This document shows positions 4,396 through 55,110 of a stretch of 64,000 bases of DNA, in pieces; the stretch's first letter is position 1, and every line of letters begins with the position of its first letter. Made by a program: the position numbers and the translations under genes. The DNA is taken from the NCBI GenBank assembly GCA_016179765.1, contig JACPCL010000029.1:10333-74332 (forward strand), read 5' to 3'. The notes below the pieces were generated by a model. That model saw nothing but the letters and a program-made list of their open reading frames with translations, ran no database searches and was not told where the DNA came from. This DNA comes from Chloroflexota bacterium (lineage in GTDB: Bacteria > Chloroflexota > Dehalococcoidia > Lucifugimonadales > JACPCL1).

Positions 4396-6075
4396 TTACT
4401 CTAAGGGGAGGAGCAACGGCTGCGTTGCCGGGGATGGAGTAGCGCCTTGCCCCTCTACTGGGGGAACGATGCGGTAGCCCTGGCCCCGTTGGGTAAGGAT
4501 GATGCGTGGCATTCGCGGGTCTTCCTCCAGCTTTCGGCGCAGGTGCTGGATGTGCACCTTGAGCAGATAGGAGGCGTTGGCGTACTCTTGCCCCCACACC
4601 TTGACCAGCAGCTCCCGTGCCAGCACAACACGGCCATGGCCCTGGGTCAGATGTTGCAGCAGCTTGGCCTCGGTAGCGGTCAGCCTCACCTTTCGGCCCC
4701 TGACCGTGGCCTCCCGCCTGGGGATGTCCAGGAAGAGGCCTGGGAAGGCGAAGGCGGTGGAGGCCTGCTGGGGGCTATGGCGCAGAACGGCCTCTGCCTT
4801 GGCCAAGAGGAGCCTGTAGCCAAAGGGCTTGCTGAGGTAGGCATCGGCGCCCGCCTCCAACGCCTGGCTCTCAGCGGCCTCGTGGCTGCCGGCGCCCAGG
4901 AGGACCAGGGGCACGGAGGAGGCCAGGCGCACCTCCTGGCAGAGATGAAAGGGGCCAGTCGCCTGGGAAGCTGCGTCCAGGAAGACCAGGTCAAAGGCCC
5001 CTTGCTTCAGGAGGGACAGCCCTTCTCCCATGCCAGAGGCGGCTTTGACGGCGCAAGCAGGCCAGCGGACCCGAAGACAGAGGGCCACCGCTTGGGCAAC
5101 CTCTGCAGAGGCGCTGATGACGACCACCTCAGGGCTGGTGGCTTCATGAACTGATAGCGGCGCCTGGGGCGTCCTTGGGAGCGCCTTCTCTTCATACGGG
5201 GGCTGCGATGAGCCTGGGTCCAGCTCACTGGCCAGCCTCTCCAGGGCCGCCGCCCTTTCCAGCAACGCCTCGCCCAGCCCCTGAGCGGAGCCATCGTCCG
5301 GAAGCTGTCCGTCCGGCCCTTTTTCTTTCAAGAAGGCCCCAAAGGGGCCTTCCTCTCCTTGTCCGGTGGCCGCTCGGAGGGCAGTGGAGGCGTCCAGAAG
5401 GCGCTGCCCAGCTAGGGCGGCGCGCTCCTCTTGCTCTTGAAGGCGCCTTCGCAGCTCCGCGGCCTCCGCTTCCTTGAAGGCATAGAGCCGTGCGTCCTCT
5501 ATGCTGGGAGCAGCATGAGCGAGGCTCTGCGCCAGTTGCTCCAACGCTTCAGGCGCGGGGGGAGCGCCGCTCTCCGTGGGGCCAAGGAGCACACCTCCCA
5601 GAGGTTGGCTTTCCTCCAGGAGAGGCAGCAGGTGTTGTGGCCTGACCTCTTGCAGCAAGCGAAGGAACTGCTGGGGCAGCGCCTGGGACTGGGGAAGGTC
5701 TTCTGCCTGTGCCCAAGGGGTCCCGCATGGGCCGTTCGCGGCTGCCCAGCAGAGCAGAGGGAGAGCAGAAGCCAGGGGGGCCACGGCTATCGTGGCGGGG
5801 GGATTGCCCGTCAGGAAGGTGATGCGTCCCTCCTCTGGAGAGTGAAGCAGGAGGGCAGCCGTTGAGGCCCCGGTCGTTGACTGGGCCAGCCGCAGCAACC
5901 GGCCTACCCTCTCGTCCAAACGCAAGGAAACAGGGAGGGCCTGGCCGGGAGGAGTGGCACGCAAGGGGGTAGCAAGGGATGGGATCCCCTGGCTTTCGCC
6001 GGTGTGGCCGTGGGTTGTGGTGGTGGGATTGGCCATGAGATTGCGTCTCTGCCCCGTTTCCATTCTCTCGTCCAT
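4396..6075 (-). CDS. Atypical response regulator: N-terminal GAF-like region, degenerate receiver, OmpR/PhoB-type winged-helix DNA-binding domain
   Basis: C-terminus LTATEAKLLQHLTQ...VHIQHLRRKLE...ILTQRGQGYRI is the OmpR wHTH pattern. The receiver keeps DLVFLD and YLSKPF but has VVISASAE in place of the acidic DD pair. Start codon uncertain (6105/6075/6063/6036). Confidence 0.75.
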   Translation of the reverse strand: MDERMETGQRRNLMANPTTTTHGHTGESQGIPSLATPLRATPPGQALPVSLRLDERVGRLLRLAQSTTGASTAALLLHSPEEGRITFLTGNPPATIAVAPLASALPLLCWAAANGPCGTPWAQAEDLPQSQALPQQFLRLLQEVRPQHLLPLLEESQPLGGVLLGPTESGAPPAPEALEQLAQSLAHAAPSIEDARLYAFKEAEAAELRRRLQEQEERAALAGQRLLDASTALRAATGQGEEGPFGAFLKEKGPDGQLPDDGSAQGLGEALLERAAALERLASELDPGSSQPPYEEKALPRTPQAPLSVHEATSPEVVVISASAEVAQAVALCLRVRWPACAVKAASGMGEGLSLLKQGAFDLVFLDAASQATGPFHLCQEVRLASSVPLVLLGAGSHEAAESQALEAGADAYLSKPFGYRLLLAKAEAVLRHSPQQASTAFAFPGLFLDIPRREATVRGRKVRLTATEAKLLQHLTQGHGRVVLARELLVKVWGQEYANASYLLKVHIQHLRRKLEEDPRMPRIILTQRGQGYRIVPPVEGQGATPSPATQPLLLPLE

Positions 6076-6192
6076 AGAATAGACGTCCCCTGTTAATTTC
6101 GTCATGCACCATGACGCAACATCCGGTATAGATGCGGACAAGTTGCGGTTAATTACGGCCTTAATAGAGCCTGTCACACTGCAACCGGCCAC

Positions 6193-6222
6193 TTGCATAA
6201 AATAGAACGTATATTCTATTAT
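6193..6222 (+). promoter_or_regulatory. Sigma70-like promoter (TTGCAT-18-TATTAT) overlapping a 7-bp inverted repeat AATAGAA-N6-TTCTATT
   Basis: Read directly in the AT-rich divergent region between the regulator (minus) and the 6258 membrane gene (plus). GGAGGG lies 4 nt before GTG 6258. Confidence 0.45.
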
Positions 6223-6257
6223 ACCTGGCATGAACCTATGGGCCATCGGAGGGCTCC

Positions 6258-6584
6258 GTGGCGAGAGGTGCCAGGTTGTTCCAGCTTGAACTCGTCCTCC
6301 TCATGCAGAGGGGGGTGACCATTCTCCTCAGCGGCTACAACGCCTGCTTCTTCTTGGCCTACGCCCAGCGCCACGTCCGAAGGCGATGGGGGGCGCGTAC
6401 CCTGGCCCTGTTCAACGTTGCCCTGGGTGGCGAGAGCCTAACCTTTGGGCTGGTCCCCCGTCTTCTGGATGCCCCAGCGTTGCTCACCACGGTGGGCCAG
6501 TTCATTGCATCGTCTCTATCGCTGGCGGTGGCGGTGGTCATGGCGGCGCTGGTTTTGTGGCACCGGCTGCGCAGAAAAGGATAG
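6258..6584 (+). CDS. Small integral membrane protein, unknown function
   Basis: 108 aa with about 3 hydrophobic spans (VTILLSGYNACFFLAYA, LALFNVALGG, IASSLSLAVAVVMAALVLW). GTG start with RBS. No family recognised. Confidence 0.5.
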   Translation: MARGARLFQLELVLLMQRGVTILLSGYNACFFLAYAQRHVRRRWGARTLALFNVALGGESLTFGLVPRLLDAPALLTTVGQFIASSLSLAVAVVMAALVLWHRLRRKG

Positions 6585-6762
6585 ACCTGACCCCCGTTCC
6601 CTTCTCCTTCGTCCCGATGCCATCGGGACTCAAGGACAGGCTCTTCCCTCAAGGGAAGGGGAGAGAAAACACGTGAGGGTGAGGGAGAGGGTGAACAGGA
6701 AGAAGGGAAGGTTCTTTCCCCAGAGGTGAAGGGAAAGAGGGTAATTCCTTGAGGAGGTCCCA

Positions 6763-6948
6763 ATGTCTACGCTGGCACAGGCGGTACGCAAGGAACGGTG
6801 GGAGCTGGCGGCTCTGTTGCTGCTGCAAGGGATGTGGGAGGTGGTTCAGCGTGTCCCAGAGGACGCCATCCCGCAGCTTCTGGAGGCGCTGGAAGGCGCC
6901 GATTCGTTGGGGAACATGAAGGGAGGGGCCGATGGCCCAGGCGCCTGA
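6763..6948 (+). CDS. Hypothetical small protein (first gene of phage-like block)
   Basis: 61-aa ORF. Its stop overlaps the next ORF start, consistent with translational coupling. No family recognised. Confidence 0.35.
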   Translation: MSTLAQAVRKERWELAALLLLQGMWEVVQRVPEDAIPQLLEALEGADSLGNMKGGADGPGA

Positions 6949-7252
6949 GACCTCTGACTTCTACGCCAACGCCCTCTCCGAGGCGGAGCGCCTGCGCCTG
7001 CCCAAGGCCCGATCGGTAGCGGGGCTGGACGAAGAGATCGCCTTGCTGAGGGTGCGGTTGTTCCGGGCGGTCCAAGAGCACTCGGAACAGCTTGAGCTCC
7101 TGCTGAAGGGCGTCAACGTTCTGGTGCGCCTGGCTGCTCTGCGCTATAAGCTCTCGGACAAACCGGCCCAGGAGCTTGCCAAGAGCATAGAAGGGGTGCT
7201 GAGGGGCGTCGGCGGCGCACTGTACCCGGAGCGTTTCACCAATGGCGGATGA
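6932..7252 (+). CDS. Hypothetical helical protein upstream of terminase (small-terminase position, not recognisable)
   Basis: 106 aa, helical/charged (LDEEIALLRVRLFRAVQEHSEQLELLLKG). Overlaps both neighbours by 11-17 nt. Confidence 0.45.
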   Translation: MAQAPETSDFYANALSEAERLRLPKARSVAGLDEEIALLRVRLFRAVQEHSEQLELLLKGVNVLVRLAALRYKLSDKPAQELAKSIEGVLRGVGGALYPERFTNGG

Positions 7253-7517
7253 CAAGCTGCCCAAGGATACGCTGAAGGAGACGCTGAGCAGGCTCTTCCG
7301 GCCTCTCCAGAAGGAGGCGCAGTTGCCAACGACAATGGAGGAGCTACAAGCGGGCCTGGACCTCTCGCCGCGGTCGCCCTTTGACGTGGTGCTGGACCAG
7401 CGCCTGAAGGCCCTGGAGAGCCAGGTGGAGGAGCTGAAGGGCCGGGTCAACGGGCTGATGGCTCTGGTAGCCGGGGCGGTGGTGGTGCAGATTGTGCTGG
7501 GATTTTTCCGAACCTAA
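7242..7517 (+). CDS. Hypothetical coiled-coil protein with C-terminal transmembrane helix
   Basis: 91 aa: LKALESQVEELKGRVNG followed by LMALVAGAVVVQIVLGFF. Confidence 0.45.
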   Translation: MADDKLPKDTLKETLSRLFRPLQKEAQLPTTMEELQAGLDLSPRSPFDVVLDQRLKALESQVEELKGRVNGLMALVAGAVVVQIVLGFFRT

Positions 7518-7551
7518 CCCCCTGGCCCCCTTCCCTCATAGGGAAGGGGGG
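7513..7551. repeat. REP-like element, family CCTAACCCCCTGGCCCCCTTCCC-N5-GGGAAGGGGG
   Basis: cctaaccccctggcccccttccc tcata gggaagggggg with a 10-bp stem. Same family at 29473, 29566, 29739, 29898, 32339, 34379, 40264, 63264. Confidence 0.8.
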
Positions 7552-7569
7552 AACAGGAAGCAGCCACTT

Positions 7570-8961
7570 ATGCCACTACAACATACGCTCCGCCCCTATC
7601 AGGTAGAGGTAGGCAGAGCCATCCTGGACAGCGTTCTCAACCGCAAAGGCCTCACCTTTACGGTGGAGATGGCCCGCCAGGGGGGCAAGAACGAGCTATC
7701 GGCTCAGCTGGAGGTGCTGCTGCTGACGCTGTTCATGGCCCAGGGAGGCAACATCGTCAAGGCCGCTCCCACCTACGTGCCGCAGCTTCTGCACAGCATC
7801 CTGCGCCTCAAGGACCGCCTGACGGAGGCGGGCTACGGCGGCCTCTGGCGCAAGGAGGCGCTGAACATCTTCTGCCTGGGCAAGGCGCGCCAGGTGTTCC
7901 TCAGCGCCGAGCCTTCGGCGCGGGTCGTTGGGGCCACGGCCCACATCCTGCTGGAGATGGACGAGGCCCAGGAGGTGGGCAAGGAGAAGTTCTACAAGGA
8001 GTTCCGGCCTATGGGCGCCTCCACCAACGTCACCACCGTGCTGTACGGCACGCCCTGGGACGGCGATTCTTTGCTGGAGGAGGTGAAGACGGCCAACCTG
8101 GAGCAGGAACGCGCGGATGGCATTCGTCGCCACTTCCGATACAACTGGCAGGCGGTGGCCGAACACAACCCCCTCTATCTGGCCTACGTAGAAGGCGAGC
8201 AGAGGCGACTGGGGGAGGACCACCCGCTGTTTCGCACGCAGTATCTGCTGCTGCCGGCCCACACCGGCGGCGGCTTATTCTCACTCTCCCAGCAGGCCCA
8301 GCTTCAGGGCCAACACCCGAGGCAGCGGACGCCTACACCGGGGGTGACCTACGTGGCCGCCCTTGACGTGGCCGGCGGCGTGAATGACGGCGATGGGCTG
8401 GCCGACCAAGGGGACGGCAACCGCGACTCCACGGTGCTGACCATCGGCGAGCTGGATTTTGCCGCGGGCGATCCCGCCAGTGGTGAGCCCCAGGTCCGCG
8501 TGGTGGAGCACCGGTGGTGGACGGGGGTATCGCCGGCGGCGCTGCACCCGCAGCTTCTGGACCTGGCGCGGCTGTGGCGGCCCCGGCGATTGATCGTGGA
8601 CGCCACGGGCATGGGCCAGGGGACCGCCAGCTTCCTAGAACGCGCCCTGGGCGGCATGGTGGAGCCATTCGTGTTCACCGCCGGGAGCAAGTCCCGCCTG
8701 GGCTTTGACCTGCTGGCAACCGTCAACAGCGGACGTCTGAAGGCCTACGCCCCGGATGGTTCCCGGGAGCACCAGGAGCTGTGGCGACAGCTTGAGCGTG
8801 CCGAGGCCCACCTGCGGCCCAATCGCGGGCTGGCCTTTGGCGTGGCCGCCGCCAAGGGGCACGAGGACTTTCTGATGAGCCTGGCGCTGCTGGTGCAGGC
8901 CGCCCGCTATCTGCCACGGGTGGCCCGGGGGCGGGCGAAGGAGGCGGTGGGGGTGGGATAA
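7570..8961 (+). CDS. Phage terminase large subunit
   Basis: 463 aa from ATG 7570. RPYQ..., Walker A-like MARQGGKNE, Walker B LLEMDEAQ, GTPW, nuclease-domain acidic motifs ALDVAGG, DSTVLTIGE, LIVDATGMGQG. Confidence 0.75.
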   Translation: MPLQHTLRPYQVEVGRAILDSVLNRKGLTFTVEMARQGGKNELSAQLEVLLLTLFMAQGGNIVKAAPTYVPQLLHSILRLKDRLTEAGYGGLWRKEALNIFCLGKARQVFLSAEPSARVVGATAHILLEMDEAQEVGKEKFYKEFRPMGASTNVTTVLYGTPWDGDSLLEEVKTANLEQERADGIRRHFRYNWQAVAEHNPLYLAYVEGEQRRLGEDHPLFRTQYLLLPAHTGGGLFSLSQQAQLQGQHPRQRTPTPGVTYVAALDVAGGVNDGDGLADQGDGNRDSTVLTIGELDFAAGDPASGEPQVRVVEHRWWTGVSPAALHPQLLDLARLWRPRRLIVDATGMGQGTASFLERALGGMVEPFVFTAGSKSRLGFDLLATVNSGRLKAYAPDGSREHQELWRQLERAEAHLRPNRGLAFGVAAAKGHEDFLMSLALLVQAARYLPRVARGRAKEAVGVG

Positions 8962-8970
8962 AACCGAATC

Positions 8971-9034
8971 CCGTAGGGGCGAACCGGTGTGTTCGCCCTG
9001 CGCCCTGGGCCGACACATCGGTCGGCCCCTACGG
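8971..9034. repeat. Composite REP palindrome (GTAGGGGC...GCCCCTAC family)
   Basis: ccgtaggggc...gcccctacgg outer arms enclose two 8-bp hairpins (GGGCGAAC/GTTCGCCC and GGGCCGAC/GTCGGCCC). Confidence 0.75.
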
Positions 9035-9120
9035 AGGAGATCTTCTGGATAGCCGTGCGAATTGGCAAGCCGATTGTAGACAGGTGGTGTGCCGTGAGCA
9101 GCAGGAAAGGTGTCCCGGCC

Positions 9121-9390
9121 ATGGATACGTTACCCGAGTACTTCCCCTACAAGGACGACGGTTGCGAGGTGTCGCCCACGTGCCTGCGGTGCCCGCTGCC
9201 CCAATGCAAGTATGATGACCCCGGCTGGCTGGCCCGGGTCCGAAGGGACCTCCGCGACCGGCAAGTGGTGGAGGCCCGCCGCTGCGGCGACGTCACCATC
9301 GGCGACCTGGCGCGGCGGTTTGGGCTGAGCGTGAGGACGGTGCACCGGATACTGGGGAAGGGGCAGGAGAATGGGAAGTCCGACGCATGA
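9121..9390 (+). CDS. Cys-rich N-terminus + helix-turn-helix protein (phage-type regulator or small DNA-binding protein)
   Basis: 89 aa from ATG 9121: C-x6-C-x2-C-x4-C cluster (CEVSPTCLRCPLPQC), then IGDLARRFGLSVRTVHRIL HTH. Confidence 0.55.
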   Translation: MDTLPEYFPYKDDGCEVSPTCLRCPLPQCKYDDPGWLARVRRDLRDRQVVEARRCGDVTIGDLARRFGLSVRTVHRILGKGQENGKSDA

Positions 9391-9431
9391 GAGTAGGGGC
9401 AGGTTTGAACCCTGCCCCTACGTTCCCCATT

Positions 9432-9561
9432 GTCATGCTGAGGAGTCCCAATGGCATCGGGAGGACGAAGCATCTAGGGCGCACGGTGAGGTAGGCATCC
9501 GCCTTAGATGCTTCGCGATGTTCGTCCCGATGGGAATCGGCACTCACTCGCTCAGCATGAC
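9432..9561. mobile_element. MITE-like element, family with GTCAT(G/T)(C/G)(T/C)GAGG termini
   Basis: 130 bp bounded by gtcatgctgagg ... gctcagcatgac (11/12 inverted), with internal inverted repeat gacgaagcatcta/tagatgcttcgcg. Confidence 0.65.
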
Positions 9562-9660
9562 AGGAAGGGCTACGGTATTAGTGTCCGCGTGATGCACGAA
9601 TACTGGCAAAGCGTCTCTGGAATAGGAGCCGAATAGTACTCATCTCAGTGCAAGGAGTTG

Positions 9661-9696
9661 CAGCTAAAGAAAAGTAGCGTCCTTGCAGACGCTACT
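9661..9696 (-). terminator. Intrinsic terminator of the tRNA-like/micro-ORF unit
   Basis: Minus strand: AGTAGCGTC tgcaag GACGCTACT followed by TTTCTTT. Confidence 0.65.
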
Positions 9697-9721
9697 CAAA
9701 TCACAATTGTAATAATTAGAA

Positions 9722-9775
9722 TTACTTACTATGTTTTACATTTATAACAATGTGAATGGTGATAATCCAAATCAT
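9722..9775 (-). CDS. Candidate 17-aa hydrophobic micro-ORF MIWIITIHIVINVKHSK
   Basis: Hand-translated minus strand. AAAGGAG lies 4 nt upstream of the ATG; the stop TAA is followed 25 nt later by the terminator. Below the ORF-track length cutoff, in AT-rich DNA. Confidence 0.25.
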   Translation of the reverse strand: MIWIITIHIVINVKHSK

Positions 9776-9842
9776 ATCGCTCCTTTCTCGCTGAATATTC
9801 TTTCCTCCTTTCTGCCTCAGCGGAGCTTAATAGCACAATTAC

Positions 9843-9962
9843 CTGGTGGGGCCGGAGGGACTCGAACCCTCACGGAGCTTGCGCCCCACTCCCTTAGACT
9901 GGGTCTAAGCCCAAGCTTAGGCTCACTCCAAGGGAAGCGCGTCTGCCATTTCGCCACAGCCC
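9843..9962 (-). tRNA. tRNA-Leu-like (type II) gene, 120 nt, with a 39-nt sequence in place of the 7-nt anticodon loop; function or pseudogene status unknown
   Basis: Hand fold: acceptor GGGGCTG/CGGCCCC, D arm GCG-AAATGGCAGA-CGC, stem CTTCC/GGGAG closing a 39-nt insert, variable arm T-GGGGC-GCAA-GCTCC-GT, T arm GAGGG-TTCGAGT-CCCTC, A73, encoded CCA. Confidence 0.55.
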
Positions 9963-9972
9963 CATCAGGACT

Positions 9973-10001
9973 GATTGTACCACAACGTTCAAGTTCTGTC
10001 A
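9973..10001 (-). promoter_or_regulatory. Near-consensus sigma70 promoter TTGACA-17-TACAAT for the tRNA-like gene
   Basis: Minus-strand reading cTTGACAgaacttgaacgttgtggTACAATcagtcctgat, then the GGGGCTG 5' end of the tRNA-like gene. Confidence 0.7.
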
Positions 10002-10111
10002 AGTAGACTTTGAAAATTGTACAAAATGAACGCATACATATTGATTATTTGCAGATGTATTTCATTCAGGAGTAAGTCATATCGGGATGTTTTCGCATTG
10101 GAGATGCAATT

Positions 10112-11416
10112 ATGAACACGCTACCCCTTCCCCAGCAGCTTGAGCGCATGGACGCGGAGCGCCTGCGCCGCTACCAGGAGCACCTGGCCTTCTACAGCGG
10201 TCGTCAGTGGGTGGGGCGTGCCCGCCCCGGTGAGCGGCGCCTGACGTTCAACTACGCCAAGGCCATCGTGGACAAGCTGGCGTCCTACGTGATGAGCGGC
10301 GTGAGCGTGGCCGTGGAGCCGTGGGACGCCTCAACCGAGGCCGCCGAGCGGGCCCGGCGCGCCCAGGAGGCGCTGCGCCAGGTCTATCAGGAGAACGCCC
10401 TGGAGACCCTGGACCTGGACACCGAGCTGGACGCCTCCATCCTGGGCGATGGGGCCTTCAAGGTAACGTGGGACGCCGATGCCGCACGGGTACGCGTGAC
10501 GTCGCCGGACGTGCAGGGCCTCTTCGCCTGGTGGCAGCCGGACGACCCTTCCCGCCTGTGGCGGGTCGCCAGCCGCTACCGACTGTCGTCGGAGGAGGCG
10601 TCGGCTCTGTACGCCATAGAGTCGCCTGTCCCAGGGCAGCCCCAGGGACAGGTCACGGTGGTGGAGGCATGGACAGGGGATGCCTTCCAGCTTTGGGCCG
10701 GCAACCATATGATCCGGGAGTCGCCGAACCTTTACGGCTTCATCCCCTTTGTGCTGTTCCCCAACCTGCGGGTGCCCAAGGCCTTCTGGGGGGAGTCGGA
10801 CCTGCCCGCCCTGGTGGAGCCGGCGCGGGAACTGAACCGGGCGCTGTCGCAGCTTTCGGCCATCGTGGAGCTTTCGGGCAACCCCATCGCCGTGCTGGAG
10901 GGCGTGGAACGGGCCGAGGACATCGCCGTGCAGCCCGGCGCGGTGTGGGAGCTGCCGGAGCGGGCGCGGGCGTACCTGCTGGACCTTCTCCAGGGAGGCG
11001 GCGTGAAGCTGCACATTGACTTCATTGACCTGGTGTACCGGGCCATCCACGACATCTCGGAAGCGCCGCGGACGAGCTTTGGCGATAACCCCAAGGCCCT
11101 CTCTGGCGTGGCGCTGGAGATGGAGATGAACCCGCTCATGCAGCGGGTGCGGCGCAAGCGGCTGGTGCGCTCCGCCGCCTACCAGCGCCGCAACGAGATG
11201 GTCCTGCGCCTGCTGGAACAGCACACGAGGGTGTCCTACCTGCCGGTGCGTCAGGAGATGGTGTGGGGGCCGGTGCTGCCCCAGGACCGGGGCCGCCTGG
11301 TGCGGGACGAGGCGCTGCTGGTGGGGGCTGGCCTGCACAGCAAGCGCACGGCCATGGAGGCGCTGGGGGTGCGGGATGTGGAGGGGGAGGTGGGGAGGAT
11401 ACGGGGGGAGGGGTGA
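10112..11416 (+). CDS. Phage portal protein (SPP1 gp6-like)
   Basis: 434 aa. The N-terminal pattern RYQEHLAFYSGRQW...RLTFNYAKAIVDKLASYVMSG and overall size fit the portal family. GGAG lies 8 nt before the ATG. Confidence 0.7.
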   Translation: MNTLPLPQQLERMDAERLRRYQEHLAFYSGRQWVGRARPGERRLTFNYAKAIVDKLASYVMSGVSVAVEPWDASTEAAERARRAQEALRQVYQENALETLDLDTELDASILGDGAFKVTWDADAARVRVTSPDVQGLFAWWQPDDPSRLWRVASRYRLSSEEASALYAIESPVPGQPQGQVTVVEAWTGDAFQLWAGNHMIRESPNLYGFIPFVLFPNLRVPKAFWGESDLPALVEPARELNRALSQLSAIVELSGNPIAVLEGVERAEDIAVQPGAVWELPERARAYLLDLLQGGGVKLHIDFIDLVYRAIHDISEAPRTSFGDNPKALSGVALEMEMNPLMQRVRRKRLVRSAAYQRRNEMVLRLLEQHTRVSYLPVRQEMVWGPVLPQDRGRLVRDEALLVGAGLHSKRTAMEALGVRDVEGEVGRIRGEG

Positions 11417-11425
11417 GGGCAATCG

Positions 11426-11454
11426 TTGCTGGTAGGAAACTTATGTGCGAGAAT
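11426..11454 (+). promoter_or_regulatory. Possible promoter TTGCTG-17-(TGc)GAGAAT for the DUF433 operon
   Basis: Read directly 23 nt upstream of ATG 11477. Weak -35, extended -10 TG. Confidence 0.3.
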
Positions 11455-11476
11455 AGGGCGCACTGAAGGAGACCAC

Positions 11477-12166
11477 ATGTCCAACTATGTAGGGATATAC
11501 CAGATGGCCGAAGCCAGCAGGTATCTCTCCATCACCGCCCCGAAGACAAAGCCTGGGTATCCGACAGTACGTAGATGGGTGAGGAGCGGCGTCTTGCTTA
11601 ACAGTGAGCTTGATCGAAAAGAAGTGGAGGTAGTACTCTCTTTTGAGGACTTAATTTCGCTCCGGATGATTGTTGCCCTAAGACTGGCAGGTTTCTCTCT
11701 TCAGCACATACGTAAGGTTCACTTGTGGCTCCAGAATGAAGTCACGCATTACCCGCGCCCCTTTGCCTTGAGGGACCTTTGGGTAAGTACCACAGATGTC
11801 TTTGTAAGAATGGAGGGAGCTTTCCTGTCGGCCTCTAGGCAAGGACAGTTTGCCCTAGAGTTTATCAAAGATTGGCTACGTGAACTTCGTAGGCCTGATA
11901 CAGGCCCGCTTGATCTCACTTTTGAGAAGTTTGATGGCAAAGAACGGGCAATCGCTTGGAGTCCTCACGCACACATCGCCTTGAACCCCAAGATTCAGTT
12001 TGGCTCCCCCTGCATCAGTGGGACGAGAATACCCACCTACAGCGTCTGGGGAATGCACCGCGCTGGAACCCCAGAAATCACCATAGCCAACGACTATAAA
12101 GTCCCTGTAGATGCAGTTAAAGCGGCCATTGATTGGGAGCAGAAGATTGACAGGCTCGCAGCCTGA
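11477..12166 (+). CDS. HTH + DUF433 domain protein (putative antitoxin)
   Basis: 229 aa from ATG 11477 (AAGGAG RBS). N-terminal MerR/excisionase-like HTH (MAEASRYLSI...PTVRRWVRSGVL); C-terminal DUF433 pattern GSPCISGTRIPTYSVW... Confidence 0.65.
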   Translation: MSNYVGIYQMAEASRYLSITAPKTKPGYPTVRRWVRSGVLLNSELDRKEVEVVLSFEDLISLRMIVALRLAGFSLQHIRKVHLWLQNEVTHYPRPFALRDLWVSTTDVFVRMEGAFLSASRQGQFALEFIKDWLRELRRPDTGPLDLTFEKFDGKERAIAWSPHAHIALNPKIQFGSPCISGTRIPTYSVWGMHRAGTPEITIANDYKVPVDAVKAAIDWEQKIDRLAA

Positions 12167-12179
12167 TCCTTCAACAGTC

Positions 12180-12572
12180 GTGGTTCTCCTGGACGCGAGC
12201 TTAGCCGACAGGCCCGTGGCGGCTGCCCTCAGACTTGTTGACTATTCCAATGCTGTGGCTGTGTCTGACCGGTTTGGTGAAGGGGTGGAGGACCCGATCG
12301 TGATACAGTGGCTTGGCCTTCAAGGGGGCCTCTGGGTCACGATGGATGAGAGGGCGAGACATCGGCATGCCGCTGTGATTGAGCAATCGGGCATCCATGT
12401 TCTTTGGGTTCGTCGCCCTAAATCTGGCATGAGCAAGAGGCAGCAGCTTTATCTCCTCCTCGGCGTCCTCGACAGCGTCCTCGAACAGATCAAAAGAACC
12501 CGTCTTAATCAAAGCCTGAGATTTCTCGCCAAATATAGTGGTGAGAGGCCAAGAGTAGAACGGTTGCAGTAA
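12180..12572 (+). CDS. DUF5615/PIN-like (Mut7-C-type) putative toxin
   Basis: About 130 aa starting VVLLDASL... (family typically starts MxxLLDENL), with LWVTMDERA. GTG 12180 is the first plausible start after the DUF433 stop at 12166. Lower GC than flanks. Confidence 0.5.
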   Translation: MVLLDASLADRPVAAALRLVDYSNAVAVSDRFGEGVEDPIVIQWLGLQGGLWVTMDERARHRHAAVIEQSGIHVLWVRRPKSGMSKRQQLYLLLGVLDSVLEQIKRTRLNQSLRFLAKYSGERPRVERLQ

Positions 12573-12726
12573 CCCTTCCCTCTTCACCCCCTCCTCTAGA
12601 ACCTGCTGCACCCAGTAGGGCAGACGCGTCGCAGCACGCGCTGTTAGAGACGTCAGTTCTCGTAGCATGGCGCGCCAGCCGATGACACGGGTCCGCAACG
12701 GTCCGTTAGGAGGCCGGCTTCTGCCC

Positions 12727-13734
12727 CTACCTGGGCAGCCCCTTGCCGCCGGCAAGCATGGCTGCCAATTTGATGGCCTCCACCATGCTGACCGCCTGGG
12801 CGACGCCCTTGCCGGCGATGTCAAAGGCCGTGCCGTGGTCCACCGAGGTGCGCACCAGGGGCAGGCCCAGGTTCACGCTGACGCTCTCCTCAAAGCCGTG
12901 CACCTTCACGGGGATGTGCCCCTGGTCGTGGTACATGCACAGCACCGCATCGTACTTGCCGTCAATGGCCTGGTTGAAGATGATGTCCGCCGGCACGGGG
13001 CCGGTGGCAAGGATGCCCAGGGCGCGGGCGTCGTTGACGGCTGGCTCAATCTGGGTGGCCTCTTCGTCACCCAGGAGGCCGCCGTCGGAGCCGTGGGGGT
13101 TGAGGGCGGCGACGCCAATGCGCGGCTGCGGGAACCCCCACTGCTTGAAATAGTCGTCCGTCAGCTTCAGCTTGCCCAGGATGTTGTCGCGGGTCACGGC
13201 GTCGCAGGCGCGGCGCAGGGAGCGGTGGGTGGTGAGGTGGACGACGCGGAGGGCGCCGGAGATGAGCATAGTGGCGACGTTGCTTGCCCTGGTCATGGCC
13301 TGGAGGAGCTCCATGTGGCCAATCTCCTTGTAGCCAGCAAGGGACGCCGCCTCCTTGTTGACAGGGGCTGTGGCCATGGCGCTGACGCCGCCGCCCAGGC
13401 AGAGGCGGCCCGCCAGCTCTACCCACTGCATGCACGCCTTGCCTGCGACGGGGGATACCTGGCCCAGGGCCACGTCCTCGTAGTTCAGGTTGTGGGGGTC
13501 AAGGACGGAGACGACGCCGTGGGCAGGGTCTACGTCGCCCGGATGCTGTGCCTCCCGTACGGAGAGGCGCGCCCTGGAGATGGCAACGCCATGCTGCATT
13601 GCCTGGGCGCTGCCGATGACCAGGGGCAGGCAGAGGTCACGCACCTCTTTGAGGGCGAGGGCCTTGGCGACCACCTCCGGGCCAATGCCGCAGGGGTCTC
13701 CCATGGTAATGGCGATGACGGGTAGCTGGGACAT
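12727..13734 (-). CDS. pdxA: 4-hydroxythreonine-4-phosphate dehydrogenase family (PdxA/PdxA2)
   Basis: MSQLPVIAITMGDPCGIGPEVV..., HTSVDHGTAFDIAG-type C-terminal motif (RTSVDHGTAFDIAGKG). AAGGAG RBS. Confidence 0.85.
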   Translation of the reverse strand: MSQLPVIAITMGDPCGIGPEVVAKALALKEVRDLCLPLVIGSAQAMQHGVAISRARLSVREAQHPGDVDPAHGVVSVLDPHNLNYEDVALGQVSPVAGKACMQWVELAGRLCLGGGVSAMATAPVNKEAASLAGYKEIGHMELLQAMTRASNVATMLISGALRVVHLTTHRSLRRACDAVTRDNILGKLKLTDDYFKQWGFPQPRIGVAALNPHGSDGGLLGDEEATQIEPAVNDARALGILATGPVPADIIFNQAIDGKYDAVLCMYHDQGHIPVKVHGFEESVSVNLGLPLVRTSVDHGTAFDIAGKGVAQAVSMVEAIKLAAMLAGGKGLPR

Positions 13735-13989
13735 GGTGCTGCTCCTTGCATGGGCCGCGCCAAGGGCATTGCCCTAGGCGAACCCTGCGATGGTGATGAC
13801 CGCATGGGCAGGGGCCTGGCGTTGTAGAAACCTCAGGGGGGCATTGCCCGGTCAATTACGAATTGGCTGTTGGCGAAGCTGGTTTGTCCCGCCCTCCCGC
13901 CCGCAAAGGTCTTGTAGGGGACGCCCCTAGAACCCCGGGCAAGGGGCAGCGCCCCTTGCCAATCCACTGTCATTTGTTGGCCGAGGCTC

Positions 13990-14949
13990 TCAGGGGGCGA
14001 GGGGTAGCTGGGCGCCCAGGCCGCGCTCCTTGGCCTTGGCGTAGACGTAGGCCGCAGCGGCGACGTCGCTGACGGCGATGCCCTGGGACTCAAACAGGGT
14101 GATGTCGCTGTCGGCGTGGCGGCCCTGGATGCGGCCCACGGCCACTGACGCCAACTCATGAATCTGGTCCCAGCGGATGACGCCCCGCTCTATGGGGTAG
14201 AGCAGGTCGCCGGCCTCCACCTGGGCGTCGGGAATGCTGTCCACCACCACAACGTTGGCGCGGCGGATAACGTCGTCGTCCACCTCGCGGCGAATCCAGT
14301 GGTTGCTGCCCGCAGCGTTGACGTGCTGCCCCGCTTCTAGCCAGGCTCCCAGCAGCACTGGCTCTCTGGCGGTGGTCATGGTGATGGCGATGTCCACGCC
14401 CTTGACGCACTCCTGGGCGGTGGCGGCCTGGGCCACCTCTATGCCCAGGGCCGCAGACATCTCCTGGCAGAACTTCTTGCAGGCCTCCTCCACGCGGTCG
14501 TAGGCCTTGACGCGCCGGATGGGGCGGACGGCGCAGACGCCTTCAAGCTGCGCCCGACCCTGGAAGCCGGCGCCGATGATGCCGACGGTGGCTGCGTTCT
14601 GCCGGGCCATGTACCTGGTGGCCACGGCGCTGACGGCTCCGGTGCGCATCTGGGAGCACCGTCCACCCTGGACAATGGCCAGGAGGTCGCCGGCCTCGCT
14701 ATCGTACAGGAGTGTGGTGAAGCGGGTTCCGGCGGAGAAGCTGGTGTAGGTCTTGAGGCCAAAGACCTTGCTGCCGAGGACGGCGGCGGCCATGAGGTGG
14801 TGGAAGCCCCGGGGCATACGGATGCGGGACCGGGGACGGTTCCAGGTGAGGCCGTTACCGGCCTGCTTGAATGCGTCGTCCACCACCTCTACGCACTCCT
14901 TCATTGTCATGAGTTGGTTGACCTCGGTATCTCCCAGCAGCAGCACCAT
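13990..14949 (-). CDS. Ornithine cyclodeaminase / mu-crystallin family protein
   Basis: 319 aa from ATG 14949 (AGGAGG RBS). MVLLLGDTEVNQLMTMKECVEVVDDAFK..., IIGAGFQGRAQL Rossmann motif. Confidence 0.85.
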   Translation of the reverse strand: MVLLLGDTEVNQLMTMKECVEVVDDAFKQAGNGLTWNRPRSRIRMPRGFHHLMAAAVLGSKVFGLKTYTSFSAGTRFTTLLYDSEAGDLLAIVQGGRCSQMRTGAVSAVATRYMARQNAATVGIIGAGFQGRAQLEGVCAVRPIRRVKAYDRVEEACKKFCQEMSAALGIEVAQAATAQECVKGVDIAITMTTAREPVLLGAWLEAGQHVNAAGSNHWIRREVDDDVIRRANVVVVDSIPDAQVEAGDLLYPIERGVIRWDQIHELASVAVGRIQGRHADSDITLFESQGIAVSDVAAAAYVYAKAKERGLGAQLPLAP

Positions 14950-15034
14950 GGGCTCTCCTCCTGTGTGCGGCTCCAATGCTGGGGCCAGTATACACCACCC
15001 GTAGCAAGGGCCACAGCCTGCCTGATTTGAGAGA

Positions 15035-15075
15035 GGTGTAGTGGGTGCATGGCTTTGCCATGCACCCACTACACC
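15035..15075. repeat. Perfect 19-bp hairpin
   Basis: GGTGTAGTGGGTGCATGGC ttt GCCATGCACCCACTACACC in the divergent region between the OCD-like gene and the cyclase gene. Confidence 0.85.
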
Positions 15076-15100
15076 TAGCCAACTCATAGAGAAAAGCCCA

Positions 15101-15109
15101 TGCTATAAT
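15101..15109 (+). promoter_or_regulatory. Extended -10 element TGcTATAAT
   Basis: Perfect TATAAT with upstream TG, 227 nt before the cyclase ATG. No good -35. Confidence 0.35.
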
Positions 15110-15335
15110 GGGTTTCGTTTCATCAGACGCTAATGCTCATGGATTAAGGAAAACCCTCTTGGGTGTTCGCGTAATGGGCGGCAGGGCTGTGCCAAGAGGA
15201 TGTTAGGTTGGGCATAGATCTGCGCCCAGGGAGAGAGGGAAGCCCCCTGGGGCTTCCTTGATAGCAAGATACGATGGGATGCTCTTTGAGGAGAGGCAAA
15301 CCACCTCCCGCGGGAGAACGTGAAGGAGGGATGCC

Positions 15336-19043: not shown

Positions 19044-19177
19044 TACCAGATGGAGGGCGCGGTGATGGTCTTCCTTTTGAGTTCATGACCATTACCGTGC
19101 CAAAGCCAACACCACTGCAGTGAATGAACGGTGGACGCTGCGTCCTTCACCCATCCCACAACCGAGGTTGCGACATC

Positions 19178-54721: not shown

Positions 54722-54796
54722 TCCGCAGTAGCTCAGTGGTAGAGCGGCCGGCTGTTAACCGGTTGGTCGTAGGTTCGAGTCCTACCTGCGGAGCCA
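54722..54796 (+). tRNA. tRNA-Asn (anticodon GUU), CCA encoded
   Basis: Hand fold: TCCGCAG/CTGCGGA acceptor, GCTC-AGTGGTA-GAGC D arm, GCCGG-CTGTTAA-CCGGT anticodon arm, GTAGG-TTCGAGT-CCTAC T arm, G73, CCA. Confidence 0.9.
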
Positions 54797-54805
54797 ACGA
54801 TTCCA

Positions 54806-55072: not shown

Positions 55073-55110
55073 CCGGTTGGTCGTAGGTTCGAGTCCTACC
55101 TGCGGAGCCA
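55036..55110 (+). repeat. Partial duplicate of tRNA-Asn (D-arm-like segment + palindrome + perfect 42-nt copy of the 3' part)
   Basis: 55069-55110 is identical to 54755-54796 (42/42). 55036-55052 matches 54731-54747 at 16/17. No complementary 5' acceptor strand, so it is not a functional tRNA. Confidence 0.85.

What the first reader, a model, noticed from the sequence alone, without database searches (positions are those of the whole stretch)
9843..10001. Strongly promoted 120-nt tRNA-Leu-like gene whose anticodon loop is replaced by a 39-nt structured insert
Seen (minus strand): GGGGCUG acceptor; UG; GCG-AAAUGGCAGA-CGC (3-bp D stem, Leu/type-II-like D arm); G; CUUCC [39 nt: CUUGGAGUGAGCCUAAGCUUGGGCUUAGACCCAGUCUAA] GGGAG (5-bp stem closing the insert); U-GGGGC-GCAA-GCUCC-GU (long variable arm with GNRA loop); GAGGG-UUCGAGU-CCCUC T arm; CGGCCCC; A73; encoded CCA. 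Everything except the anticodon loop is textbook, and removing 32 nt would give an 88-nt type-II tRNA. The insert has its own hairpin (CUAAGC-UUGG-GCUUAG) and three CUAAG/CUUAG copies that allow alternative pairings. No single 32-nt deletion restores a Leu anticodon: the possible 7-nt loops are CUUCUAA, CUUGUAA and CUUGGAA (UCU, UGU, UGG). A near-consensus promoter (TTGACA-17-TACAAT) ends 10 nt before the 5' end, so this does not look like a silent relic. It sits in a ~520-bp low-GC island between the terminase and portal genes. Inference, three options: a phage-type tRNA hit by an insertion, a tRNA with an unconventional intervening sequence, or an anticodon-less tRNA mimic (decoy or regulatory RNA).
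Basis: partly seen in the sequence, partly recalled or inferred. Interest (0 to 1): 0.7.

Follow-up and report, generated by a model that had tools for sequence, protein, structure and literature searches.

The report
Anticodon-less tRNA-Leu-like gene with hairpin
A strongly promoted gene in a Dehalococcoidia (Chloroflexota) chromosome encodes a flawless leucine-tRNA body whose anticodon loop is replaced by a ~20-bp hairpin, so it cannot read codons. Similar hairpin-capped tRNA-Leu genes turn up in other metagenomes, but this copy is unique to its lineage and could be either a tRNA mimic or simply a disrupted tRNA.

Summary
Window 9963..9844 (minus strand) is a 120-nt type-II tRNA-Leu body: 7/7 acceptor pairs, a Leu D arm, a GCAA-capped variable arm, a canonical T arm, A73 and an encoded CCA. 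A 39-nt insert replaces the anticodon loop. Rfam tRNA scores it 39.9 bits (gathering 29); default ARAGORN misses it. An 11/12 sigma-70 promoter ends 10 nt upstream. A terminator-like hairpin lies about 150 nt downstream. The unit sits in a 519-bp low-GC cargo island (GC 0.44 against 0.64).

The host cluster (terminase-like, HTH, portal) is chromosomal and conserved in more than 576 Dehalococcoidia species. None of 86 related loci carries the tRNA-like gene. No group I or bulge-helix-bulge (BHB) intron signature is present, and no splice choice gives a Leu anticodon.

New finding: pattern scans recover about 19 well-formed tRNA-Leu-type genes with 28-54-nt hairpin inserts at the same site. Some of these families conserve the insert while their stems covary. 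The other hairpin-capped members favour the sense RNA strand. The window copy does not show that strand bias, and no sequence-level relative of its insert was found.

Best reading (about 0.4): a non-decoding tRNA-shaped RNA. Main rival (about 0.35): an insertion-inactivated tRNA. Function is unknown.

The parts
9844..9963 (-). 120-nt tRNA-Leu-like gene (position 1 = 9963; A73 = 9847; encoded CCA = 9846-9844)
   Evidence: Rfam RF00005 at 39.9 bits against a gathering score of 29. Parse shows 7/7 acceptor, 3-bp D, 5-bp anticodon, 5-bp variable-arm and 5-bp T stems. The MFE fold is a cloverleaf with an extended anticodon arm.
9894..9932 (-). 39-nt insert occupying the anticodon-loop position (tRNA positions 32-70). 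With the anticodon stem it forms an imperfect hairpin of about 20 bp, capped by CUAAGC-UUGG-GCUUAG (9920-9905).
   Evidence: The arm is -25.2 kcal/mol, z = -4.46. The apical hairpin has pair probability 0.97. No other copy exists in the window at up to 3 mismatches.
9974..10002 (-). Sigma-70-type promoter TTGACA-17-TACAAT with an extended -10 TG. The -10 box ends 10 nt before the mature 5' end.
   Evidence: 11/12 matches. It is one of 5 such sites on both strands of the window.
9722..9775 (-). Possible 17-codon ORF (MIWIITIHIVINVKHSK) with an AAGGAG Shine-Dalgarno sequence 5 nt upstream, on the same transcript. It is unverified. By eye, the Shine-Dalgarno sequence can pair with an upstream GCUCC.
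   Evidence: Read from the sequence. It is too short for the family tools, and no counterpart lies downstream of the L164 gene.
9672..9697 (-). Intrinsic-terminator-like hairpin (11 pairs, then a U-rich tail) that would end a transcript of about 295 nt.
9593..10111 (.). Low-GC cargo island ('moron'-like cassette) between a conserved palindromic/ORF region and the portal start.
   Evidence: GC 0.44 (flanks 0.35-0.39) against 0.64 for the window. It is absent from 86 related loci, whose slot holds DUF805 or MerR genes instead.
10112..11416 (+). SPP1-type portal gene, divergent from the tRNA-like gene. It belongs to the conserved chromosomal phage-derived cluster that hosts the island.
   Evidence: Pfam PF05133 at 1.3e-14 and phrog_64 at 4e-28. 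It is 58-88% identical in more than 576 Dehalococcoidia species genomes.

Best explanation
The gene makes a tRNA-shaped RNA that cannot decode. It is derived from tRNA-Leu, and its anticodon loop has been replaced by a stable hairpin, so the whole anticodon arm is about 20 bp long.

Shown: it is transcribed as its own unit, running from a near-consensus promoter to a terminator-like hairpin. That unit lies on a horizontally acquired low-GC cassette, inserted in the variable slot of a conserved phage-derived chromosomal cluster.

Inferred from established tRNA biology: with an intact acceptor stem, elbow (G18G19 / T-loop), A73 and encoded CCA, it should be matured by RNase P and the 3' processing enzymes like a tRNA. 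Bacterial LeuRS does not read the anticodon (E. coli identity work; Asahara 1993, Larkin 2002). The RNA should therefore still bind LeuRS and probably be leucylated.

Inferred from geometry: the ribosome cannot use it.

Speculative, on its role: it is either a stable tRNA scaffold that displays the hairpin, or a sink or decoy for factors that recognise the tRNA-Leu body rather than the anticodon. Such factors include LeuRS, acceptor-end-modifying toxins and aminoacyl-transferases.
For: 1. The tRNA body is flawless while the anticodon loop is gone. Its Rfam score falls within the range of other insert-bearing Leu genes (39-50 bits) and lies below normal Leu tRNAs with the same D arm (50-61 bits).

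2. A rare 11/12 promoter sits exactly at the 5' end, and there is a terminator downstream.

3. The architecture recurs. The pattern ATGGYAGACGCR-N50-80-GGGTTCRARTCCC finds 21 viral and 74 metagenome contigs. About 19 of the distinct genes are well-formed Leu-type genes with a 28-54-nt insert at anticodon positions 34-36. Ten of these ('group 2', including the window) have a 33-39-nt insert that turns the arm into one helix of about 20 bp with a small cap. The z-scores are -3.6 to -7.3 in nine of the ten; L186 is the weakest at -1.9.

4. Selection acts on the RNA in the class. The arm is more stable as sense than as antisense RNA in 9/9 other group-2 members, and G.U pairs number 22 sense against 8 antisense over 12 inserts. 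In family L167/L180/L184/L192 the acceptor and anticodon stems covary while the insert is conserved. L134 and L161 share an identical insert but have different variable arms.

5. Several group-2 genes also have a -10 box ending 8-11 nt upstream.

6. No intron signature is present.
Against: The window copy is the one group-2 member without sense-strand bias: the arm is -25.2 kcal/mol as sense RNA and -26.7 as antisense. Two of its three 1x1 mismatches are A.C, which would be G.U pairs on the other strand. Its helix also needs a bulged U29 and a shifted register.

No sequence-level relative of its insert exists. The similarity to L164 has p of about 0.02 and is no better than other pairs.

Nothing matched in the phage records, in the specific viral and metagenome pattern scans, or in 86 syntenic loci. 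Conservation of this particular RNA is therefore untested.

The class was ascertained by requiring intact D and T arms, which enriches for intact-looking genes. Hairpin inserts also occur in some non-Leu bacterial-type tRNAs (L217, L278, L280). This weakens the argument that synthetase recognition independent of the anticodon matters.

Expression, processing and charging are all inferred.
Confidence: 0.4

Rival explanations
1. Insertion-inactivated tRNA-Leu. An ordinary mobile-element or phage-type tRNA-Leu arrived with the low-GC cassette. It was then hit by a 32-nt palindromic insertion or duplication in the anticodon loop. The promoter still fires, but the product has no selected function and the gene is decaying too recently to show it.
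For: The gene is unique to this lineage. The insert folds at least as well on the antisense strand, as expected for a DNA-level palindrome rather than an RNA under selection. The helix is imperfect and register-shifted. The anticodon loop is a known hot spot for recombination into tRNA genes (established knowledge; Williams 2002).
Against: There is not a single disruptive change anywhere else in the 81 non-insert nucleotides. The promoter is near-consensus. No intact parent (same D arm and anticodon stem with a 7-nt loop) was found in viral contigs. No second copy of the palindrome exists in 64 kb. The same ~34-39-nt, ~20-bp design recurs independently elsewhere under apparent RNA-level selection.
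Confidence: 0.35
2. Intron-containing tRNA. The insert is an intervening sequence removed by an unrecognised bacterial or phage endonuclease-plus-ligase activity, or in trans by a ribozyme, to give a decoding tRNA.
For: In a subset of the class ('group 1': L134/L151/L161, L167/L180/L184/L192, L183/L190, L175) every insert is flanked by CUU...AAAA. Removing it gives CUUAAAA, a perfect tRNA-Leu(UAA) loop. This is exactly the site of the classical bacterial group I intron, CUU/a...g/AAAA (site notation from bioRxiv 10.1101/2020.01.27.920355). L134 sits in a tRNA array next to tRNA-Leu(CAA).
Against: For the window gene no splice choice gives a Leu anticodon; only UCU, UGU or UGG are possible. ARAGORN's two solutions, Arg(UCU) and Ser(GGA), disagree with each other and with the Leu body. 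At 32-39 nt the insert cannot be a group I ribozyme, and there is no Intron_gpI hit at E up to 10. The predicted arm has only 1x1 internal loops and no two 3-nt bulges separated by 4 bp. Other group-2 members also give no consistent anticodon (checked by hand on the sequences).
Confidence: 0.1
3. RNA partner (antidote or decoy) of the neighbouring DUF433 / PIN-like toxin-antitoxin pair. The PIN-like nuclease would target tRNA-Leu, and the uncleavable look-alike would titrate it.
For: Both the window (DUF433-MerR at 11426-12166; PIN_10-like at 12111-12572) and the architecturally closest gene, L164 (DUF433 at 732-1340; DUF5615/PIN_10 at 272-781, ending 18 nt from the tRNA-like gene), carry such a pair next to the tRNA-like gene. 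In L200-L203 a homologous pair lies directly upstream of leuS. PIN-domain VapC toxins are known tRNA anticodon-loop nucleases (established knowledge).
Against: None of the homologous pairs examined has a tRNA-like neighbour. Checked were the four short same-species contigs L196-L199 and the more distant homologues L200-L206, plus 18 loci around the closest homologues of the L164 protein, where the pair instead follows an IS1595 transposase. Other group-2 genes have unrelated neighbours such as OEP, kinase, esterase, FtsX and methylase. In the window the portal gene separates the two. Such pairs are abundant mobile cargo, so two co-occurrences can be chance.
Confidence: 0.07

Closest known systems
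Canonical bacterial type-II tRNA-Leu
   Same: The 21-nt D-arm string GTGGCGAAATGGCAGACGCGC occurs in 13 viral contigs, always in ordinary tRNA-Leu genes with GAG, CAG, UAG or CAA anticodons. It also shares the 3-bp D stem, long variable arm, A73, T loop and encoded CCA.
   Different: There is no 7-nt anticodon loop and no Leu anticodon, and the anticodon arm is about 20 bp instead of 5 bp. Default ARAGORN rejects it.
Group I intron-interrupted bacterial tRNA-Leu(UAA) (classical CUU/intron/AAAA site)
   Same: The interruption lies inside the anticodon loop of a Leu tRNA. Some relatives in the class (group 1) use exactly the CUU/AAAA site.
   Different: The insert is 32-39 nt, whereas the smallest known group I introns are about 200 nt. 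There is no Intron_gpI match, and removal does not restore a Leu anticodon in the window gene.
Archaeal/eukaryal protein-spliced tRNA introns (bulge-helix-bulge)
   Same: A short insert (archaeal introns are typically 16-44 nt) that pairs to extend the anticodon helix.
   Different: There is no BHB motif in the fold. The canonical 37/38 solution gives Ser(GGA) in a Leu body. The host is bacterial, and no splicing endonuclease could be looked for beyond the window.
tRNA-like non-coding RNAs (bacterial Y RNA YrlA, tmRNA tRNA-like domain, mascRNA, phage T4 species 1/2 RNAs, B. cereus tRNA-Other)
   Same: A tRNA-shaped acceptor/T/D core that keeps recognition by tRNA enzymes but has no decoding anticodon. 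In YrlA and tmRNA a long helix takes the place of the anticodon arm (recalled from the literature, not tested).
   Different: This RNA is not permuted (YrlA has its ends in the long stem). It has no mRNA-like domain or pseudoknots. The best non-tRNA Rfam matches are far below threshold: mascRNA 18 bits against 42.5, permuted tmRNA 15 against 47. No Y RNA / YrlA match at all was listed at E up to 10. The core is a full, unreduced tRNA-Leu.
Irregular / allo-tRNA-like genes of soil bacteria (Mukai et al. 2017, as reviewed in PMC7609411)
   Same: Non-canonical tRNA genes, often in polycistrons and linked to transposable elements or toxin-antitoxin genes, of unknown use. Insert-bearing Leu genes L134, L175 and L124 sit beside such odd tRNAs: a 94-nt Ile(UAU) with a long variable arm, and a 92-nt Ser-like Arg(UCU).
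   Different: Allo-tRNAs are defined by 8/4 or 9/3 acceptor/T geometry and keep an anticodon loop. The window gene has the canonical 7/5 geometry and lacks the loop.
Phage 'morons' (autonomous promoter-gene-terminator cassettes between conserved structural genes)
   Same: It has its own promoter and terminator and a deviant GC content. It sits between conserved terminase-side and portal genes and is absent from relatives, whose slot carries other cargo.
   Different: The cargo is an RNA gene (plus at most a 17-codon ORF). The host cluster is a chromosomally fixed phage-derived cluster, not an active prophage.

Membership tests
tRNA (Rfam RF00005) | Covariance-model score at or above the curated gathering threshold over the full model | tested here: met
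   39.9 bits against 29, model positions 1-71, with a 35-nt insertion in the anticodon loop.
tRNA (functional decoder) | A 5-bp anticodon stem closed by a 7-nt loop with U33 and a 3-nt anticodon | tested here: not met
   The loop position holds 39 nt that pair into a hairpin. Default ARAGORN makes no call.
tRNA-Leu (bacterial, type II) | Leu-type D arm (3-bp stem, G18G19), long variable arm and A73 discriminator | tested here: met
   Read from the sequence. The D-arm 21-mer is found only in tRNA-Leu genes among 13 viral matches.
tRNA-Leu (bacterial, type II) | Leu anticodon (NAG or YAA) | tested here: not met
   All eight 7-nt loop reconstructions give UCU, UGU or UGG. ARAGORN -i gives Arg(UCU) or Ser(GGA).
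tRNA-Leu (bacterial, type II) | Aminoacylation by LeuRS | not testable with these tools
   Inferred to be likely, because bacterial LeuRS does not use the anticodon. This needs an in vitro charging assay.
Group I intron in tRNA | Catalytic core (P3-P9) detectable by the Intron_gpI model; length of about 200 nt or more; U at -1 and G at omega | tested here: not met
   No Intron_gpI hit at E up to 10 in 9700-10150. The insert is 32-39 nt.
BHB (protein-spliced) tRNA intron | Two 3-nt bulges separated by a 4-bp helix at the exon-intron junctions | tested here: not met
   The MFE and centroid structures have only 1x1 internal loops and one single-nucleotide bulge.
tmRNA | tRNA-Ala-like ends enclosing a tag reading frame and pseudoknots | tested here: not met
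   ARAGORN's tmRNA search finds nothing. The Rfam permuted-tmRNA match is 15 bits against 47. The tRNA-like part is complete and contiguous.
Bacterial Y RNA (YrlA) | Permuted tRNA-like module with 5'/3' ends in a Ro-binding stem; an rsr gene nearby | tested here: inconclusive
   No Y RNA / YrlA match was listed at E up to 10, and the topology is not permuted. The window's ORFs were not all screened for a TROVE/Rsr protein.
Phage moron / cargo cassette | Own promoter and terminator, deviant composition, presence/absence polymorphism between conserved flanking genes | tested here: met
   (signals and GC). (absent in 86 related loci, where the slot holds DUF805 or MerR).
Recurrent 'hairpin-capped tRNA-Leu-like' group (defined here, not a published family) | Leu-type body plus a 33-39-nt insert at positions 34-36 that extends the anticodon stem to about 20 bp with a small cap | tested here: met
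   Insert 39 nt; arm z = -4.46, comparable with L164, L154, L156, L124, L158, L185, L144 and L116.
Recurrent 'hairpin-capped tRNA-Leu-like' group (defined here, not a published family) | Hairpin more stable as sense RNA than as antisense RNA (the signature of RNA-level selection) | tested here: not met
   The window arm is -25.2 kcal/mol sense against -26.7 antisense. The nine other members all favour sense.

The most novel reading that the evidence does not exclude
The window gene belongs to an undescribed, widespread class of bacterial and phage tRNA-Leu-derived RNAs in which a hairpin of about 30-35 nt replaces or splits the anticodon. One branch (CUU/hairpin/AAAA) would be a new kind of very short bacterial tRNA intervening sequence at the classical group I site. 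The other branch (~20-bp capped arm, as here) would be a chargeable but non-decoding tRNA mimic, used in conflicts between mobile elements and hosts or as a dedicated aminoacyl donor.
Probability: 0.25. Interest if true: 0.8.

Novelty: new variant of a known kind. Interest (0 to 1): 0.52.

Why it matters
Leu, Ser and Ala tRNAs are charged without reference to the anticodon. A tRNA-Leu body with its anticodon capped off would therefore be a natural 'chargeable but untranslatable' tRNA. Such a molecule could act as a decoy for tRNA-targeting toxins or synthetases, as a private aminoacyl donor, or as a natural version of the engineered tRNA scaffold.

Full-text searches of the held literature found no description of 20-55-nt hairpin inserts in bacterial or phage tRNA anticodon loops. 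Standard tRNA finders skip these genes, so they are invisible in annotations.

The conserved CUU/hairpin/AAAA subgroup raises a testable question: do bacteria have a tRNA intervening sequence that is not a group I intron?

If the window copy is merely a broken tRNA, the finding is ordinary. Even then it shows that a conserved Dehalococcoidia phage-derived cluster has a slot that exchanges cargo.

Tried and rejected
1. Homologues of the element:
- The island against 50,697 phage records: no match; the wider region 5000-20000: no match.
- The D-arm/insert/variable-arm pattern in viral contigs: none.
- The insert core 18-mer: one hit, judged by eye to be unrelated non-tRNA sequence.
- A specific D-arm plus T-loop pattern with insert spacing in metagenomes: none.
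- An intact-parent pattern in viral contigs: none.

2. Synteny. 80 Dehalococcoidia loci around portal homologues and 6 loci from the three closest portals were checked with blastn, ARAGORN (default and intron modes), a T-loop motif and Rfam. No tRNA-like gene lies in the slot. The three ARAGORN intron-mode calls (L003, L027, L061) are false positives without Rfam support.

3. DUF433/PIN association. This looked promising (window and L164) but failed in 11 + 18 homologous loci. A viral-contig scan with the DUF433 alignment found nothing.

4. Homology of the window and L164 inserts. The shared CCUA(A)GCUU-GG-UUAG is not significant (p of about 0.02; other pairs score the same).

5. Alternative fold with an anticodon-stem-loop-like tip (UUGGG-CUUAGA-CCCAG, a Leu(UAG) look-alike with a 6-nt loop). 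It is -16.9 against -25.2 kcal/mol, with probability about 0.

6. Repeat or mobile-element origin. There is no second copy of the palindrome in the window at up to 3 mismatches.

7. Leu specificity. A control pattern for type-I D arms mostly returned eukaryote-type tRNA-Tyr introns from giant-virus MAGs. It also returned a few bacterial-type tRNAs with hairpin inserts, so the phenomenon is not strictly Leu-specific.

8. Source look-ups. Exact-sequence look-ups of the portal and of ORF 9371-9592 found nothing on record, and contigs holding the identical DUF433 protein were too short to reach the tRNA-like gene.

9. Literature. Seven full-text searches and three papers gave no description of this class.
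Full report
WHAT IS THERE

- 7-bp acceptor stem GGGGCUG/CGGCCCC
- U8 G9
- a Leu-type D arm, GCG-AAAUGGCAGA-CGC
- G26
- a 5-bp anticodon stem CUUCC/GGGAG enclosing 39 nt instead of 7
- a variable arm GGGGC-GCAA-GCUCC
- a T arm GAGGG-UUCGAGU-CCCUC
- A73 and an encoded CCA (9846-9844)

Rfam's tRNA model matches 9847-9963 end to end at 39.9 bits (gathering 29) with a 35-nt insertion in the anticodon loop. No other family comes near its threshold. Default ARAGORN does not report the gene.

ViennaRNA reproduces all four tRNA helices. It folds the anticodon stem plus insert into one irregular hairpin with a bulged U29, 8+2+1+6 further pairs and a UUGG cap. That arm is -25.2 kcal/mol, z = -4.5 against shuffles of the insert.

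The 21-nt D-arm string occurs in 13 viral contigs, each time in a normal tRNA-Leu. The body is therefore unambiguously Leu-type.

None of the eight ways to restore a 7-nt loop gives a Leu anticodon. ARAGORN's intron mode returns Arg(UCU) with an intron at 34/35, or Ser(GGA) with one at 37/38.

EXPRESSION SIGNALS AND SETTING

TTGACA-17-TACAAT with an upstream TG lies at 10002..9974. Only five sites in the whole window, both strands, match the consensus at 11/12 or better. This one ends 10 nt before the mature 5' end.

A terminator-like hairpin lies at 9697..9672. Between the gene and the terminator is a possible 17-codon ORF with a good Shine-Dalgarno sequence (9775-9722). It is unverified.

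The 519 bp from 9593 to 10111 have GC 0.44, with non-tRNA flanks at 0.35-0.39, against 0.64 for the window.

The window is a bacterial chromosome. It carries ArgJ, response regulators, ornithine cyclodeaminase and an adenylate cyclase. It comes from a Chloroflexota/Dehalococcoidia MAG.

The 'terminase' (7492-8961, weak PHROG hits), an HTH gene (8989-9390) and the SPP1-type portal (10112-11416) belong to a phage-derived cluster. Its portal is 58-88% identical in more than 576 Dehalococcoidia species genomes.

In 80 such loci and in the three closest lineages (portal 83-88% identical) there is no tRNA-like gene. The slot between the HTH gene and the portal carries a DUF805 gene or a MerR gene instead. 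The tRNA-like unit is therefore a lineage-specific, self-contained cargo cassette of the kind called a moron in phages.

WHAT IT IS NOT

At 32-39 nt the insert cannot be a group I ribozyme, and no Intron_gpI match appears at E up to 10. The fold has no bulge-helix-bulge. It is not a tmRNA. The best non-tRNA Rfam matches are far below threshold, and no Y RNA / YrlA match was listed at all.

The palindrome has no second copy in 64 kb, so it is not an abundant REP- or MITE-type repeat here.

One gives a tip, UUGGG-CUUAGA-CCCAG, that resembles a Leu(UAG) anticodon arm with a 6-nt loop; CUUAGAC is the real loop of the tRNA-Leu in L089. That fold is 8 kcal/mol worse and has no weight in the ensemble.

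RELATED SEQUENCES

Nothing resembling this particular gene was found.

A looser pattern did find things. It asked for a Leu D arm and a T loop separated by 50-80 nt rather than the normal ~35. It returned 21 viral and 74 metagenome contigs.

Tandem or partial tRNAs were set aside. About 19 distinct genes then remain with 7/7 acceptor pairs, a 5/5 anticodon stem, a Leu variable arm and usually A73. Many encode CCA. All carry a 28-54-nt insert where the anticodon should be, keeping positions 32-33 and 37-38. Rfam scores them as tRNA at 39-50 bits, against 50-61 for normal Leu tRNAs with the same D arm.

They fall into two groups.

Group 1 comprises L134/L151/L161, L167/L180/L184/L192, L183/L190 and L175.
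- Every insert is flanked by CUU...AAAA. Deleting it gives CUUAAAA, the loop of tRNA-Leu(UAA), at precisely the classical group I intron site (site notation in bioRxiv 10.1101/2020.01.27.920355).
- In L167/L180/L184/L192 the acceptor and anticodon stems covary while the insert (UCAUC-loop-GAUGA..CGUGCAGC) is conserved.
- L134 and L161 have identical inserts but different variable arms.
- Some lie in tRNA arrays beside tRNA-Leu(CAA) and odd tRNAs: a 94-nt Ile(UAU) with a long variable arm, and a Ser-like 92-nt Arg(UCU). This recalls the irregular tRNA polycistrons reviewed in PMC7609411.

Group 2 comprises the window gene plus L164, L154, L156, L124, L158, L185, L186, L144 and L116.
- The inserts are 33-39 nt and turn the whole arm into one helix of about 20 bp with a 3-7-nt cap. 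The z-scores are -3.6 to -7.3, except L186 at -1.9.
- No consistent anticodon can be recovered.
- Several have a -10 box ending 8-11 nt before the 5' end, as in the window.
- Neighbouring genes are unrelated to each other.

IS THE HAIRPIN SELECTED AS RNA?

G.U pairs stabilise only one strand, so I folded each insert and arm in both orientations. Nine of nine other group-2 arms are more stable as sense RNA, by 0.3 to 11.6 kcal/mol. The two family-A inserts tested are also more stable as sense RNA. G.U pairs number 22 in sense against 8 in antisense folds over 12 inserts. This points to selection on the transcript in the class.

The window gene is the exception: -25.2 kcal/mol sense against -26.7 antisense. 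Two of its 1x1 mismatches are A.C, which would be G.U pairs on the other strand.

Its apparent similarity to the L164 insert (CCUAAGCUUGGGCUUAG against CCUAGCUUCGGUUAGG) is not significant (p of about 0.02, matched by other pairs).

The window gene therefore fits the group-2 design in size and shape. It has no demonstrable relative and lacks the one signature that would show selection on its own hairpin.

A LEAD THAT FAILED

Both the window and L164 carry a DUF433 protein plus a PIN-like (PIN_10/DUF5615) protein next to the tRNA-like gene. A homologous pair abuts leuS in L200-L203. PIN toxins often cut tRNA anticodon loops, so a decoy role was attractive.

However, 11 loci around homologues of the window protein have no tRNA-like gene. 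Nor do 18 loci around the closest homologues of the L164 protein, where the pair follows an IS1595 transposase. I treat the co-occurrence as probably coincidental (about 0.07).

HOW IT MOST LIKELY WORKS

Shown: an intact tRNA-Leu body without an anticodon loop, on an autonomous promoter-to-terminator cassette of foreign composition.

Inferred from established tRNA biology:
- maturation by RNase P and the 3' processing enzymes;
- recognition, and probably leucylation, by LeuRS, which in bacteria relies on A73 and the D/T elbow and not on the anticodon;
- no possibility of decoding with a 20-bp arm.

Speculative: a role as a decoy or sink for factors that read the tRNA-Leu body, or as a stable scaffold for the hairpin, like the engineered tRNA scaffold.

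I put this functional-mimic reading at about 0.4, an insertion-inactivated tRNA at about 0.35, an unconventional intron at about 0.1 and the toxin-partner idea at about 0.07.

A control scan showed that a few non-Leu bacterial-type tRNAs in viral contigs also carry hairpin inserts (L217, L278, L280). The argument from synthetase recognition independent of the anticodon is therefore suggestive only.

NOVELTY AND VERDICT

The gene itself is a new variant of known kinds of object (tRNA-like RNAs; disrupted tRNA genes). It is unique, untested for expression, and possibly a relic.

The more interesting result is the class. Hairpin inserts of a narrow size range sit at one site of Leu-type tRNA genes. 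They recur in bacteria and phages, show signs of RNA-level constraint, are invisible to default tRNA finders, and were not found in seven full-text literature searches.

Interest is 0.52 for the finding as given. It would be about 0.8 if the class proves to be a real family of mimics or mini-introns, which I put at about 0.25.

Noticed in passing
window 7492-11416; loci L001-L086: The terminase-like/HTH/portal cluster is not a prophage remnant peculiar to this genome. The portal is 58-88% identical in more than 576 Dehalococcoidia species genomes, many on Mb-scale chromosomes. No capsid or tail genes lie next to it in the window. It looks like a vertically kept, possibly domesticated phage-derived module with a variable cargo slot (DUF805, MerR, or the tRNA-like cassette).
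   Followed up: partly
window 9425-9570 (+); L081 6-186 and 224-409: A 146-nt nested inverted repeat folds into one long hairpin (-77.8 kcal/mol, z = -6.7). It lies just upstream of the island, inside ORF 9371-9592, which has no Pfam match. The homologous stretch is present twice in tandem in the closest relative, at the same edge of the cargo slot. It may be a structured RNA or a recombination/boundary element.
   Followed up: partly
window 54722-55110: tRNA-Asn(GUU) at 54722-54796 is followed by an 88-codon GIY-YIG nuclease ORF at 54806-55072 (Pfam 2e-15). After that comes a perfect 42-nt repeat of the tRNA's anticodon-loop-to-3'-end segment (55069-55110), and a 94% copy of its D arm (55036-55052). 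This is a small GIY-YIG element inserted at a tRNA gene with duplication of the target, leaving a second, unannotated partial tRNA-Asn copy that overlaps the ORF's 3' end.
   Followed up: partly
L134 360-474, L151 415-505, L161 988-1078, L167, L180, L184, L192, L183/L190, L175 (metagenome contigs): These tRNA-Leu genes carry a 22-47-nt hairpin-containing insert flanked by CUU...AAAA, so removal gives a perfect Leu(UAA) loop at the classical group I intron site. The insert is far too short to be a group I intron. It is conserved across species whose stems covary. This may be an undescribed short intervening sequence.
   Followed up: partly
L134 740-833; L151 2093-2185; L161 192-285; L124 2904-2995: The tRNA arrays next to insert-bearing Leu genes hold odd tRNAs. 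One type is a 93-94-nt tRNA-Ile(UAU) with a long, type-II-like variable arm. Another is a 92-nt tRNA with a Ser-like body (G73) and anticodon UCU. They are reminiscent of allo-tRNA-like irregular tRNAs (PMC7609411).
   Followed up: no
L102 family (L102, L104, L108, L109, L112, L113, L115, L118, L120, L121, L146, L149, L165, L193); L101 family (L101, L103, L114, L117, L129, L132, L133, L141, L177): Two tRNA-Leu-like gene families are widespread in viral contigs. One has a 33-nt insert (AUUCAG-loop-CUGAAU) and a short variable region. The other, which includes a contig labelled human gut metagenome (L132), has a ~65-nt structured central domain and no recognisable anticodon stem. Both score above the Rfam tRNA threshold, at 35 and 32 bits.
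   Followed up: no
L200-L203 (DUF433 at 5001-5684 in L200); L326-L343: DUF433 + PIN-like pairs homologous to the window's pair sit directly upstream of leuS, beside a type I restriction-modification system, in one Dehalococcoidia lineage. Homologues of the L164 pair always follow an IS1595 transposase. These pairs behave as mobile cargo.
   Followed up: partly
window 9722-9843 (-): Downstream of the tRNA-like gene, on the same predicted transcript, is a 17-codon Ile-rich hydrophobic ORF (MIWIITIHIVINVKHSK). By eye, its Shine-Dalgarno sequence can pair with an upstream GCUCC...GCUGA segment. This layout resembles small type I toxin mRNAs. It is not conserved next to L164.
   Followed up: no
L078 695-781 (-): An 87-nt tRNA with anticodon CCA and a long variable arm (Rfam 56 bits) lies about 3 kb upstream of the portal in another Dehalococcoidia genome. 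A type-II-like Trp tRNA is unusual.
   Followed up: no
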